Below, piece after piece: positions 1 through 3,000 of a stretch of 64,000 bases of DNA. Where the stretch lies: the NCBI RefSeq assembly GCF_054482525.1, contig NZ_CM137006.1, one strand, 5' to 3'. The stretch's first letter is position 1. Each line of letters starts with the position of its first letter. The position numbers are program-made.

Positions 1-3000
1 TTTGCCTTTGGGCTTGGGCTTGGCTTCTGGCTACAATCTGGTAAGAATGCCGATGAAATTTCGGCTATTAAATCAGTTCATGCTGAACAGGTGAGGGCGG
101 TAACACCTGACAGTACCAGCGATTTACCGAGACTTTCTATTGATTCTTTCTCTCAGCTTGGTTTTGATGTTTCTGTTACGTTTGTTGACGCTAAGGGTAT
201 GAAGTACCAGTATTTTGATTTAATTAAAGATGGTTATTCCGTTGATATTAAAGATGCCTGCCGAATTGTTATCAGAAAAGGCCATTATTTACAAAGCGTC
301 ACCTGTCAGGAGTAATATTACTATGCGTTTATTTTGCATTGCCATCTTATTCATTTATTCTTTTTGTGTTTCTGCTGAAACTGTTAATCTTAATAATTCA
401 TCCGTTCGTTCATTTGTCCAGTGGTATTCATCAAAAACTGGTAAGCCTGTTATTGTTAACCCCGATGTTAAAGGCTCCGTAACAGTATTTAATGCTGATG
501 TTAATCCCACAAATATTGATGACTTTTTCAAATCTGTTCTGAATGCTAATGGATTTGTCATGCTTTCTGGTAATCCTGCGGTAGTATCTTTGCCGTCAAA
601 ATTACCGTCACAGATGGCATCAGACCCTGATGATTCCGATAATCAGTCTTATGACTCTTTTCCGCCAGAGCCATCCTGTCAGCCAGCGCCTGTGGCGCTC
701 ACTGTCAGAAATTTTAAGCTGACAAAAGTACGAGCGTCTGATGTTCAGCAACTGGTTAAAATTTATCTGGATTCGAATGGCGGGGGTAATGTCGTGGATT
801 ATCCCGGCAATAACTCCCTGATTGTATCTGCGCCTGACGAGCTACTGCCTGTTCTGTCCAATTTCATTAACTCAGTTGATGTTGCCCGTGATCAGGTACT
901 CATTCAATCGCTCATGTTTGAAACCAGTTTGTCTGATGGTGTTGATTTGTCATTTGCAGCTGGCTCTGCATCCGGCCATAAGGTGGCGGGGGGTTTTAAT
1001 ACTTCTGCGCTGGGTAATGCTCTTTCTACGGTGGGCGGCTCTTTTGGTATTTTTGATGGTAACGTGTTGGCGCTGTCTCTGCGTGCTGTCCAGAGTAATT
1101 CACGCTCTAAGGTGATTTCAACACCGCGCATTCTTACTCAGTCCGGTCAGACTGGTTATATTTCCGTAGGTAAGAATGTGCCGTTTATCACAGGAAAGGT
1201 AACGGGTGAATCTGCTGGGGTAAATAATCCGTTTCAGACTATCGAACGTCATGATGTTGGCGTTTCTCTCAAGGTAACGCCTGTTGTCATGGGGAACGGG
1301 CAATTAGTTTTGACCATCGATACCCGCGCCGATTCAATCAGCAATGATGACCAAGCATCTGATATTATTACTAATCAGCGCCAGATTCAGACCACTGTTC
1401 AGATTAAGGATGGCCAGACTCTCTTACTTGGTGGGTTGATTGATTCATCATCCAGCAATGCTGACCGTTCTGTACCATTTATCAGCAAAATTCCGGTAAT
1501 TGGCTGGCTTTTCAGGAGTAAAGCTGACAGTAATGAGCAACGCATTATGTATGTCCTGCTGACTGCTCATATTATTCGTGCGCTTTGATGGGGCCGTGGC
1601 GGGTGCGTTAAGCCCCGGTATGGCCCCATCAAGAGCCAGATTTTACGTCTCACCACGGAGCCTCTATATGGCCTTAAAACTGACAGGATATGAACAGAAA
1701 AACATCTTCTAGGTGATTCAATTACTTAGAGGTTTTTATGTCTGTAAAAAGTAGGGGCGCGATCGACTTCCTGGTGGTCGCCTGAAGTCTTACCGTCGTG
1801 TTGGTTCACATTTTACCAGTTGTTCCAAGTGGTTTGATAAATCACCGTCCTGGTATCGCAATATGATGATGACCCGGCCAGAGCGCCGTGAAGTCAGAAA
1901 GCTTCTCAATCAGGTTGTACGTGGCCGTGACGCTGACGGCATCGCATTTCCGGTCAGCAACAAGCCATTTGCATGGCGGTGGTGAACATTTTTAGCCGCT
2001 AAAACTTCATGCTGACGGAATTATCGAAAACCCCGTACAGCAACAAAACTTGTTTTTGTTGCTGTACGGGGTTGGCCAAGCCGCAACAGTACTCTATTTT
2101 TCTTTGGAGTTAATTGCGGCGCGGCTAGGGATGTATCAGACTTTAATCTTAACTACTTTTTCAGTGCCGGTCATAAAACTAACCAGCTTCTTGCGGCCAT
2201 CGGGATACTCTTTAATGACACATCCTTCTGGCGTATTTTTTTCAGCGTAATAAATAGGGACGCCACTAAGAAGACAGGCTCGGGCTGCTTCACCGACATC
2301 ATGTTCTAGTTGCTGCTCGAAAACAGTCAAGAACTCTGCTTCCTCTGATGGTGTCATTTCAGCTAAATATGATAAGTCCATAAATGCTCATGCCTTCTGT
2401 AATTCATTGCTTAGTAACAATGATGAACAGGCCTGATTGGTGAGGTCAGGCTGTTCACTTACTGCTGACAGACATTTGATTCTGATTCGTTTGGAGAAAC
2501 GGATGATTTTGAATCATTGTCGATAGTAACCAGTTGACGGCCAGTGTCAACGATCCCCGCCAGATTCTGCCATCCTTACCATTGGTGCGCATAATGTATA
2601 TTATGTTAAATGGAATTTGAGTGATGCGAAGCGATTTTCCAGTCGTCGTTATTACTTCAGGGTTCCAGAACATAAAGCCTCTCCTCTTTCATGATTGGCC
2701 TGTGCATACCGGATATAGGCTGGCAGGTTTGCCGTTTGCCGCATCTTCCCTGCGTTGAAGAGTCAGGCTGGCAAACTGCGTGCAAATGAACACCCCCTCT
2801 TTCTATCAACACTTCAGACAGCTTGCGGGAATGAGTTCACTCCGGTATCAGAAATGGCTACGCCTCAATGAAGCCAGGCGACTGATGCTGAATGAACATT
2901 ACGATGTCACCACTGCAGCCTATGCTGTCGGTTACGAAAGCTTATCCCATTTCAGTCGGGAATATTCGCGGATATTTGGAGAGTCACCTAAGAGAGATAT

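What the first reader, a model, noticed from the sequence alone, without database searches (positions are those of the whole stretch)
2031..2381. Orphan 81-aa gene with its own strong terminator between the prophage and dif
The minus-strand ORF 2136..2381 is followed by a perfect 18-bp hairpin and a U-tract, which argues for a real transcription unit. It faces the phage genes, as cargo genes at prophage ends often do. I recognise no motif. From memory, CUS-1-type prophages carry an opposite-strand accessory gene, but I cannot confirm that this is the same one.
Basis: partly seen in the sequence, partly recalled or inferred. Interest (0 to 1): 0.5.

Follow-up and report, generated by a model that had tools for sequence, protein, structure and literature searches.

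The report
Orphan zeta-toxin antitoxin on filamentous prophage
The 81-codon gene is real and sits in the swappable cargo slot of a filamentous prophage integrated at E. coli dif; it belongs to an unnamed protein family that elsewhere lies directly upstream of zeta-type toxin kinases, so here it is probably a toxin-less 'orphan antitoxin', and the hairpin next to it belongs to the phage backbone rather than to the gene.

Summary
ORF 2136..2381 (-) and a perfect 20-bp hairpin (2029-2073) exist, and that hairpin is the only one of its kind in the 64 kb window.

- The gene lies inside a CUS-1/Ypfphi-like inovirus prophage, about 200 bp from the exact dif site (2584-2611). It occupies a swap site that in CUS-1 holds a different, + strand ORF (a YPO2281 homologue).
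- puvA is not an opposite-strand accessory gene.
- The hairpin is conserved in related phages that lack the ORF. Its G.U pairs appear only on the + strand, so it is a phage-backbone element, not the gene's own terminator.

The protein matches phrog_21003 and has no Pfam or NCBIfam hit. It is under purifying selection (dN/dS about 0.1-0.27).

In eight plasmid or chromosomal loci, homologues overlap the start of a ~196-435 aa zeta-toxin-family kinase gene. Other homologues are fused to antitoxin DNA-binding domains (ParD-like, MqsA zinc finger). AlphaFold places the window protein confidently against the plasmid kinase (pTM 0.88). No kinase gene is present in the window.

Best reading: an orphan antitoxin carried as phage cargo. 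Its benefit to phage or host is inferred, not shown.

The parts
1..316 (+). 3' end of the Zot-like assembly gene (pI) of the inovirus prophage; the window starts inside the prophage
   Evidence: Window 1-2611 aligns at 98.2% to L001 8411-11022. L001 annotates a zonular occludens toxin domain protein ending at 8726.
323..1588 (+). Secretin (pIV) gene of the prophage
   Evidence: One search lists an ORF ending at 1588. The L001 annotation 'secretin N-terminal domain-containing protein' is 1266 bp. tblastn to IMG/VR inovirus contig L030 gives 99%.
1738..1985 (+). YPO2280a-like 82-aa phage ORF, frameshifted in this window by a 1-nt deletion after codon 6
   Evidence: Alignment to L001, L021 and UTI89, with translations.
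2029..2073 (+). Hairpin 1: a perfect 20-bp stem with a 5-nt loop. It is a conserved phage-backbone element, selected on the + strand. It could also stop minus-strand transcription in this particular variant.
   Evidence: existence and rarity. (present in phages without the ORF). (strand asymmetry: 93.8% of cells paired on + versus 85.6% on -; 13 G.U cells on + and none on -).
2074..2125 (.). Second stem-loop. Its base (GGCCAAGCCG ... CGGCGCGGC) is conserved in all phages. Its interior co-varies with the cargo type. This is the left edge of the swap site.
   Evidence: Fold; alignment.
2136..2381 (-). 81-aa gene: a phrog_21003 member and a homologue of the upstream partner (putative antitoxin) of zeta-toxin-family kinases. 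No kinase gene follows it here.
2126..2421 (.). Cargo cassette specific to ORF81-carrying phages. CUS-1/UTI89 has a 65-aa + strand ORF here and L023 has a deletion.
   Evidence: Multiple alignment of window, L001, L021, L023 and UTI89. DNA homology to plasmid, Brenneria and island copies covers only about 2118/2129 to 2382, or to about 2405 for the guaA-island copy L004.
2422..2583 (.). Conserved attP-proximal phage backbone between the cargo slot and dif
   Evidence: Near-identical in window, L001, L021, L023 and UTI89.
2523..2550 (-). Promoter-like site TTGACA-16 nt-TACTAT pointing toward the ORF. It lies in the conserved backbone and overlaps the inverted repeat GTTGAC...GTCAAC.
   Evidence: Consensus scan, 10 of 12 matches; both hexamers are conserved in the other phages. 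A consensus match only; function untested.
2584..2611 (+). Exact E. coli dif site (attR of the prophage)
   Evidence: 0 mismatches, none expected by chance. In L021/L023 the same position is a hybrid site at a phage-phage junction.

Best explanation
The ORF is a genuine protein-coding cargo gene of a CUS-1/Ypfphi-type filamentous (inovirus) prophage integrated by Xer recombination at dif. It occupies the variable slot just inside attR, the position where CTXphi carries ctxAB.

Its product is a small acidic protein with a two-helix plus four-strand fold. It belongs to an uncurated family whose members are normally encoded immediately upstream of short zeta-toxin-family P-loop kinases, with overlapping stop and start codons. 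These pairs occur on plasmids of Alpha-, Beta- and Gammaproteobacteria. The family therefore looks like the antitoxin half of a type II toxin-antitoxin pair.

In the phage only the antitoxin half is present. I infer that it binds and inhibits zeta-type kinases supplied in trans. A candidate source is the IncP-like ~41-kb E. coli/Salmonella plasmids, whose own antitoxin is 80% identical. This would protect the lysogen, or phage production, from that toxin (anti-addiction, immunity or counter-defence).

Shown: gene reality, purifying selection, cargo-slot location, family-level pairing with zeta kinases, domain fusions, and a confident predicted complex.
Inferred: neutralisation activity, cross-reactivity of the phage copy, and the benefit to phage or host.

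The adjacent perfect hairpin is a separate phage-backbone element acting on the + strand. A packaging signal or complementary-strand origin of the ssDNA genome is the most likely role, by analogy with the Ff intergenic region after gene IV. In this variant it may additionally stop the ORF's transcript.
For: Gene reality:
- Full-length match to phrog_21003, E = 4e-55.
- 20 close and 313 distant family representatives.
- dN/dS is 0.09-0.13 against plasmid copies, 0.18-0.22 against island copies, and 0.27 against a second phage backbone.
- Present in 16 of 5426 complete E. coli genomes on two different phage backbones, and in 4 IMG/VR inovirus contigs.

Inside the phage: conserved backbone lies on both sides, and the hybrid dif lies beyond the ORF in L021/L023.

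Pairing with zeta kinases: seen in L009, L010, L024 (enterobacterial plasmids), L011 (Burkholderia), L012 (Piscirickettsia), L013 (Zymomonas pZM33), L016 and L020. The junctions read TGATG, TAATG, ATGA or GTGA.

Kinase identity: Pfam Zeta_toxin 7e-6 and AAA_33 9e-6, precomputed PF06414 hits, and best fold matches PezT, zeta and AvrRxo1 at E = 4e-7 to 2e-6.

Antitoxin-type fusions: ParD_like, E = 8.8e-15; YgiT/MqsA zinc finger, E = 9.5e-13; HigA-type antidote, E = 8e-9 but below the family's curated score cut-off.

Predicted complex of the window protein with the L009 kinase (GS-linked): pLDDT 90, pTM 0.88, with only the linker disordered.

No kinase in the window: tblastn gives all E > 0.1. 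In complete E. coli genomes the kinase is found only on plasmids, in 30 genomes.
Against: - No experiment shows that any member of this family neutralises a kinase; I found no paper on it.
- The fold has no match to epsilon, PezA or any PDB structure.
- About half of the contexts examined are orphans: window, L003, L004/L022, L014, L018, L019, L025, L027, L028. The family may therefore have a toxin-independent role.
- Selection looks somewhat relaxed in the phage and Brenneria lineage (dN/dS 0.27-0.61 within it, based on few changes). L031/L032 carry frameshifted copies.
- The fused-chain model rests on only 7 paired rows, and I could not inspect its interface.
- Expression from the prophage is untested. 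The RBS is weak, and the only good promoter match lies in the shared backbone.
Confidence: 0.6

Rival explanations
1. Leftover fragment: the gene is the surviving half of a toxin-antitoxin module that a phage once captured from a plasmid. The toxin was lost, and the antitoxin persists as a hitch-hiker with no current function.
For: No kinase and no remnant of one in the window. Frameshifted copies occur in L031/L032 and as P0013. The neighbouring phage ORF is itself frameshifted in this window. dN/dS is higher within the phage/Brenneria lineage (0.27-0.61) than between plasmid copies (0.019).
Against: The reading frame is intact. All family-conserved core residues are kept in 16 E. coli genomes, on two phage backbones, and in a Brenneria prophage remnant that has lost every phage gene but kept this ORF. 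dN/dS remains well below 1. DNA homology to the plasmid, Brenneria and ICE-like island copies is confined almost entirely to the ORF, which suggests a clean cassette rather than a decaying module.
Confidence: 0.2
2. Different job: the family is not an antitoxin but a kinase substrate or regulatory subunit, or a stand-alone immunity protein against delivered toxins. The phage copy would act on a host or incoming protein unrelated to plasmid addiction.
For: Conserved Tyr/Thr residues (PIYY, DTP) could be phospho-acceptors. One partner kinase carries a BID type-IV-secretion signal, E = 3.5e-25; Zeta/BID proteins are noted on Rhizobiaceae plasmids. Orphans sit next to an entry-exclusion lipoprotein in an ICE-like island and next to an Rhs toxin region in Ralstonia. 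Orphans are about as common as pairs.
Against: Fusions to ParD-like, MqsA-type and HigA-type antitoxin DNA-binding domains. Upstream position with translational coupling. Location among other TA pairs on pZM33 and in L018. All are typical of antitoxins. An immunity role against secreted zeta kinases is mechanistically the same activity, inhibitor binding.
Confidence: 0.15
3. One reading: an independent transcription unit with its own dedicated strong intrinsic terminator, equivalent to an opposite-strand accessory gene of CUS-1.
For: In this window the hairpin is perfect on both strands (-33.4 kcal/mol as minus-strand RNA), and four U residues follow it.
Against: The hairpin occurs without the ORF in UTI89, L023, L033-L036 and many other genomes. 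In L021, which has the ORF, the minus-strand version is weak (-16.8 against -31.2 kcal/mol on +) and is followed by only three U. All 13 wobble cells are G.U on the + strand. The terminator scan does not call it. CUS-1 has a + strand ORF in this slot, and puvA is a virion protein.
Confidence: 0.1

Closest known systems
Epsilon/zeta and PezAT type II toxin-antitoxin systems (Streptococcus; PDB 1gvn, 3q8x, 2p5t)
   Same: A small protein is encoded directly upstream of a zeta-family P-loop kinase and co-translated with it. These systems are plasmid-borne stability or addiction modules. The partner kinase's best fold matches are PezT and zeta.
   Different: The small protein has a two-helix plus four-strand fold with no similarity to the three-helix-bundle epsilon or PezA. 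The kinases are shorter (~196 aa). The hosts are Proteobacteria. In the window the kinase is absent altogether.
AvrRxo1-ORF1/ORF2 (Arc1) of Xanthomonas (PDB 4z8q)
   Same: A zeta-like kinase that is a secreted effector, kept inactive by a small cognate binding protein. This parallels the Zeta+BID kinase with this family upstream in L020.
   Different: AvrRxo1-ORF2 was not among the Foldseek PDB matches to the antitoxin model. AvrRxo1 is delivered by type III, not type IV, secretion (my own knowledge).
Orphan antitoxins used against toxin-antitoxin systems: phage orphan antitoxin-like enzymes against DarTG1 (PMC11257639), and chromosomal 'anti-addiction' antitoxins (concept reviewed in PMC2654758)
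   Same: A mobile element or chromosome carries only the antitoxin half, and so neutralises a toxin encoded elsewhere.
   Different: Those cases have experimental support and involve other toxin families and tailed phages or chromosomes. Here the carrier is an inovirus and the activity is only inferred.
attR-proximal cargo of dif-integrating inoviruses: YPO2280a/YPO2281 of Ypfphi and CUS-1, and ctxAB of CTXphi (PMC4266046)
   Same: Same position in the prophage, just inside attR/dif and after the secretion genes. Function-unknown accessory ORFs are exchanged between otherwise similar phages.
   Different: ORF81 replaces the YPO2281 homologue and reads in the opposite direction. Only a weak 25-column motif resemblance links the two families (hhalign probability 33%).
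Ff phage intergenic region (packaging-signal and origin hairpins after gene IV)
   Same: A long, strand-specific hairpin lies downstream of the secretin gene of a filamentous phage. It is conserved as a structure on the packaged (+) strand.
   Different: No sequence similarity was tested or claimed, and function here is inferred from position and strand bias only. Knowledge of Ff is from my own memory.

Membership tests
PHROG phrog_21003 (phage protein family, unknown function) | Significant full-length match to the family profile | tested here: met
   E = 4.2e-55, residues 1-81 on profile positions 1-81 of 81.
Partner (putative antitoxin) family of short zeta-toxin kinases | Homologues are encoded immediately upstream of a PF06414/PF13671 kinase with overlapping or abutting stop and start codons | tested here: met
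   Eight loci from at least six lineages; junction sequences.
Partner (putative antitoxin) family of short zeta-toxin kinases | The protein physically neutralises the kinase | not testable with these tools
   Only a predicted complex is available: GS-linked model with pTM 0.88 and pLDDT 90. No experiment was found in the literature.
Complete type II epsilon/zeta-PezAT toxin-antitoxin module | A zeta-family toxin gene adjacent to the antitoxin gene | tested here: not met
   The hairpin lies 62 nt after the stop. tblastn of five partner kinases against the whole window gives E > 0.1 throughout.
Complete type II epsilon/zeta-PezAT toxin-antitoxin module | An antitoxin homologous to epsilon or to the PezA C-terminal domain | tested here: not met
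   No Pfam, NCBIfam or PDB sequence hit. The Foldseek best hit has E = 0.6 and is neither epsilon nor PezA.
Rho-independent (intrinsic) terminator serving the ORF | A G+C-rich stem-loop followed directly by a run of U on the transcribed strand | tested here: inconclusive
   The stem is met (20 bp). The tail has only UUUU then CGAUAAUU, and the scan does not call it.
Rho-independent (intrinsic) terminator serving the ORF | The structure co-occurs with the gene and is conserved on the strand of its mRNA | tested here: not met
   Present without the ORF in many phages. Pairing is better on the opposite (+) strand: 93.8% against 85.6% of cells, with G.U cells 13 against 0. The L021 minus-strand fold is weak.
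CUS-1/Ypfphi-type inovirus prophage integrated at dif | Replication (RstA/pII-like), coat, pIII-like, Zot/pI and secretin/pIV genes in order, with an intact dif at the 3' end | tested here: met
   Annotation of the near-identical L001 (98.2% identity). Exact dif in the window. Matches the description in PMC4266046.
   puvA is described as a virion receptor-binding protein. The UTI89 CUS-1-type prophage has a + strand 65-aa ORF in the slot and no homologue of ORF81.
Known anti-phage defence or anti-defence protein (PADLOC) | A match to a defence-system model | tested here: not met
   No hit for the ORF or its homologues. The partner kinases give only weak P-loop matches.

The most novel reading that the evidence does not exclude
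The dif-proximal cargo slot of CUS-1/Ypfphi-type filamentous phages is a dedicated site for small inhibitors of zeta-type kinases carried or delivered by conjugative plasmids and ICEs. ORF81 would then be an anti-addiction or counter-defence factor that lets the phage, or its lysogen, survive plasmid-encoded toxin activation. The alternative cargo YPO2281, present in Yersinia pestis Ypfphi and E. coli K1 CUS-1, would be a divergent member of the same superfamily. That would give the first mechanistic handle on why these prophages affect fitness.
Probability: 0.12. Interest if true: 0.7.

Novelty: new variant of a known kind. Interest (0 to 1): 0.45.

Why it matters
If correct, this has three consequences.

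1. It defines a new, structurally distinct antitoxin family for zeta-type kinase toxins in Proteobacteria. The family has at least 313 cluster representatives at E <= 0.001 and no match for the window protein or its homologues in Pfam, NCBIfam or PADLOC.
2. About half of the roughly 17 contexts examined are toxin-less 'orphans' on phages, ICE-like islands and small plasmids.
3. It adds a filamentous phage to the short list of phages that carry orphan antitoxins. It also places the gene in the same cargo position that holds cholera toxin in CTXphi and the unexplained YPO2281 in the plague-associated Ypfphi.

The work also corrects a tempting mis-annotation. The conspicuous hairpin is a phage-backbone, + strand element and should not be used as evidence for a transcription unit.

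Tried and rejected
- Pfam, NCBIfam and PADLOC scans of the ORF gave nothing.
- megablast and tblastn against GenBank phages (INPHARED) found no match. The family reaches PHROGs and IMG/VR only through prophage predictions.
- The PDB sequence profile gave only a short CPAP/SAS-4 G-box beta-hairpin resemblance. Foldseek PDB found no fold match.
- Rfam gave nothing above noise for 1500-2700.
- I searched for a kinase remnant in the window; there is none.
- A first mixed alignment for complex modelling (A4) was misaligned by MAFFT, with antitoxin-only rows spilling into the kinase block. I discarded it and rebuilt it with linker anchors (A5).
- The search for related loci with the broad alignment A3 failed for lack of conserved stretches. 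A2 worked.
- The puvA/CUS-1 accessory-gene idea was rejected from the literature and from UTI89.
- 'Chromosomal gene between phage and dif' was rejected from the phage-phage junctions.
- Homology between ORF81 and the alternative cargo YPO2281 is only a weak 25-column motif (probability 24-33%), so I left it open.
- Literature searches found no characterisation of this pair.
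Full report
**1. The observation**

The window begins inside a filamentous prophage at the E. coli replication terminus. ORF 2136..2381 (minus strand, 81 aa, ATG start) is present as described.

It is followed, 62 nt after its stop, by a perfect inverted repeat with arms 2029-2048 and 2054-2073 (20 bp, 5-nt loop). This is the only perfect repeat of that kind in the 64 kb window. The 141-nt minus-strand RNA folds at -57.9 kcal/mol, z = -9.2.

The U-tract is weak (UUUUCGAUAAUU), and the consensus terminator scan does not report the site.

An exact 28-bp dif site lies at 2584-2611. It is followed by a yneL-like AraC remnant, the ydeT-Q fimbrial genes and ydeP.

**2. Where the gene sits**

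A near-identical locus is annotated in E. coli LSN03-016011/A (L001; 98.2% identity over window 1-2611). It runs hipBA, then a ~9-kb inovirus prophage, then the 81-aa gene on the opposite strand (WP_032156720, 'hypothetical protein'), then dif. The prophage carries, in order, a regulator, an RstA/pII-like replication protein, an ssDNA-binding protein, coat, attachment protein, Zot/pI, secretin/pIV and an 82-aa ORF.

I aligned the window with a second ORF-carrying phage (L021), a phage without cargo (L023) and the CUS-1-type prophage of UTI89 (L015). Phage backbone is conserved on both sides of a swap site:
- On the left: hairpin 1 and the base of a second stem-loop (GGCCAAGCCG...CGGCGCGGC, 2074-2125).
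- On the right: everything from about 2422 to dif.

In L021 and L023 a second phage follows, and the junction is a hybrid dif (GGTGCGCATAATGTAcgactcgttatgt) beyond the ORF. The gene is therefore inside the prophage, not between the prophage and dif.

In CUS-1/UTI89 the slot holds a 65-aa + strand ORF, the YPO2281 homologue.

The Ypfphi review (PMC4266046) describes YPO2280a and YPO2281 as unknown-function ORFs next to attR. It describes puvA as a virion receptor-binding protein.

**3. Distribution**

- The full ORF-plus-hairpin stretch occurs in 16 of 5426 complete E. coli genomes, on two different phage backbones.
- It also occurs in four IMG/VR inovirus contigs. Two of these carry a frameshifted copy abutting a truncated zot.
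- A Brenneria chromosome has an 87.5%-identical copy. It lies next to a hybrid dif, a DUF1493 gene and the true dif. Traces of phage backbone remain but no phage genes. This looks like a decayed tandem Xer-element array that kept the ORF.

**4. Is it a real gene?**

Yes.
- It matches phrog_21003 over its full length, E = 4e-55.
- It has 20 close homologues and 313 cluster representatives at E <= 0.001 in an exhaustive profile search.
- The conserved core is dG.aAr.hLaaG.PIYY.e.dTP.g.vIKEYPDGRrELV.f.
- Nei-Gojobori dN/dS is 0.09-0.13 against plasmid copies, 0.18-0.22 against island copies, 0.27 against the L021 phage copy (5 synonymous and 5 non-synonymous changes) and 0.46 against Brenneria. 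Two plasmid copies compared with each other give 0.019.

**5. What the family is**

tblastn against plasmids found 88 records. In the ~41-57 kb conjugative IncP-like plasmids of E. coli, Salmonella and Klebsiella, an 80-82% identical gene lies after kleE. It is joined directly to a 196-aa 'zeta toxin family protein' (L009, L010).

The same two-gene arrangement recurs in:
- an Erwinia amylovora conjugative plasmid (L024);
- Burkholderia (L011), Piscirickettsia (L012) and Zymomonas pZM33 (L013) plasmids;
- a chromosomal contig (L016);
- a metagenome contig whose kinase is fused to a BID type-IV-secretion domain (L020).

The gene junctions read TGATG, TAATG, ATGA or GTGA.

The kinases hit Pfam Zeta_toxin and AAA_33. 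In a predicted structure their best PDB matches are PezT, zeta and AvrRxo1-ORF1, at E = 4e-7 to 2e-6.

Some family members are fused at the N-terminus to classic antitoxin DNA-binding modules:
- ParD_like, E = 8.8e-15;
- the YgiT/MqsA zinc finger, E = 9.5e-13;
- a HigA-type antidote segment, E = 8e-9, a partial match below the family's curated score cut-off.

ParD_like proteins are already known as antitoxins of non-canonical PezT homologues (PMC10532202).

Together these features mark the family as the antitoxin-type partner of short zeta-family kinases. I found no description of it in Pfam, NCBIfam, PADLOC or the searched literature.

**6. Structure**

With an 81-sequence alignment, AlphaFold2 gives a confident model: pLDDT 92, helices at 11-26 and 31-38, and strands at 43-45, 54-58, 64-68 and 75-80. 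The model has no significant PDB neighbour, best E = 0.6. It is therefore unlike the three-helix epsilon and PezA antitoxins.

I also modelled the window protein joined by a 25-residue Gly-Ser linker to the L009 kinase. The alignment was block-structured, with 7 paired rows, 32 antitoxin rows and 29 kinase rows, and I checked it for misalignment. The result was pLDDT 90.1 and pTM 0.88, with only the linker disordered.

I take this as support for a specific complex. I could not inspect the interface.

**7. The window copy is an orphan**

- No kinase or kinase remnant exists anywhere in the window.
- DNA homology to the plasmid, Brenneria and island copies is confined almost entirely to the ORF, from about 2118/2129 to 2382, or to about 2405 for the guaA-island copy.
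- In complete E. coli genomes the kinase gene is found only on plasmids, in 30 genomes.

Orphan copies are frequent elsewhere:
- an ICE-like island at guaA, where the next gene is an EexN entry-exclusion lipoprotein;
- another ICE-like element;
- an 8.8-kb plasmid;
- a TA-rich island;
- a short (6.2-kb) NCBI assembly contig, where it is flanked by a TacA1-family gene and a weak VanY hit;
- two Ralstonia megaplasmid sites, one beside an Rhs toxin region.

**8. Mechanism proposed**

The phage-encoded protein acts as a stand-alone inhibitor of zeta-type kinases supplied in trans by conjugative plasmids or ICEs. This would spare the lysogen, or phage production, from that toxin, as anti-addiction, immunity or counter-defence.

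Shown: the family-level association, the antitoxin-like architecture, purifying selection and the predicted complex.
Inferred: neutralisation, cross-reactivity at 80% identity, expression and the selective benefit.

The only good promoter match pointing at the ORF is TTGACA-16-TACTAT at 2550-2523. It lies in the conserved backbone.

**9. The hairpin**

The hairpin is found at about 82% identity in many CUS-1-type prophages that lack ORF81, including UTI89, NC101 and ST131 strains.

Across eight variants, two pairs show compensatory double changes. 93.8% of cells pair on the + strand against 85.6% on the minus strand. All 13 wobble cells are G.U on the + strand, which makes them A.C mismatches on the ORF's strand.

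| Variant | + strand (kcal/mol) | - strand (kcal/mol) |
|---|---|---|
| Window | -34.3 | -33.4 |
| L021 | -31.2 | -16.8 |
| L023 | -26.9 | -15.4 |
| UTI89 | -25.2 | -15.4 |

These are predicted RNA energies. L021 carries the ORF, yet its minus-strand hairpin is weak and followed by only three U.

On the + strand no U-run follows the hairpin, so it is not a + strand intrinsic terminator either.

The most economical reading is a structural element of the packaged + ssDNA. A packaging signal or complementary-strand origin is likely, as in the Ff intergenic region after gene IV; this comparison rests on my own knowledge and is not tested here. In this window's perfect variant the hairpin may incidentally terminate the ORF's transcript.

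**10. Verdict**

The gene is ordinary in being a small prophage cargo gene already annotated as hypothetical. It gains interest as a toxin-less member of an undescribed antitoxin family for zeta-type kinases, sitting in the CTX-toxin-equivalent slot of a dif-integrating inovirus. I rate it a new variant of a known kind, with interest 0.45.

Noticed in passing
window 1738-1985 (deletion near 1763): The phage's YPO2280a-like 82-aa ORF carries a 1-nt deletion relative to L001, L021 and UTI89. This shifts the frame after codon 6, so it is a pseudogene or a sequencing error in this genome.
   Followed up: yes
window 2074-2125: A second stem-loop has a conserved base (GGCCAAGCCG / CGGCGCGGC) in all related phages. 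Its interior differs between ORF81-type and YPO2281-type cargo. The left recombination boundary of the cargo slot appears to run through it.
   Followed up: partly
window 2523-2550 (minus strand): A strong sigma-70-like match (TTGACA, 16 nt, TACTAT) overlaps the inverted repeat GTTGAC-N7-GTCAAC in the conserved attP-proximal backbone. It points into the cargo slot whatever the cargo is, so in CUS-1 it would read antisense to the YPO2281 homologue.
   Followed up: partly
L015 9131-9328 (UTI89 CUS-1-type prophage); alignment A6: The alternative cargo protein (YPO2281 homologue, phrog_6642) shares a 25-column motif with the ORF81 family: IIRHhDDGTEEVVF against VIKEYPDGRKELVSF. hhalign probability is 33%, E = 4e-4. 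This may be distant homology or convergence on a beta-hairpin.
   Followed up: partly
L003 9252-10264 (Brenneria chromosome): ORF81 is followed by a hybrid dif-like site (GGTGCGCATAAgtacgatgtgtaaac), then a DUF1493 gene (phrog_20802), then the true dif with 1 mismatch. Both sites are preceded by a similar ~25-nt sequence. This looks like a tandem array of tiny Xer-exploiting elements or prophage remnants.
   Followed up: partly
L020 596-1903: A 435-aa zeta-toxin-family kinase is fused to a BID type-IV-secretion signal domain (NF033856, E = 3.5e-25), with an ORF81-family gene overlapping its start and a T2SSE-family ATPase gene (PF00437) after it. This suggests a T4SS-delivered zeta kinase with a cognate inhibitor.
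   Followed up: partly
L031 227-429 and L032 1876-2078 (IMG/VR inovirus contigs): CUS-1-type prophages in which secretin and YPO2280a are deleted. A frameshifted ORF81 copy (77% identity) directly abuts a zot gene truncated at residue 307.
   Followed up: partly
L001 2771-4167: The prophage left end has a duplicated regulator gene (two identical WP_032229810 copies) separated by a 129-bp fragment of the replication gene. This partial tandem duplication is reminiscent of RS-type repeats of CTXphi.
   Followed up: no
L022 2150-4253 (E. coli guaA island): In an integrase-bearing ICE-like island next to guaA, the orphan ORF81 homologue sits beside an EexN-family entry-exclusion lipoprotein gene. 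By extrapolation from spread sampling of the hits, this island copy is present in roughly 55-60 complete E. coli genomes. That would make it more common than the phage copy (16 genomes) or the complete plasmid pair (30 genomes).
   Followed up: partly
window 2780-3034: An 84-aa AraC-type HTH fragment (yneL-like remnant) lies just beyond dif. It is annotated as a frameshifted pseudogene in L001.
   Followed up: no
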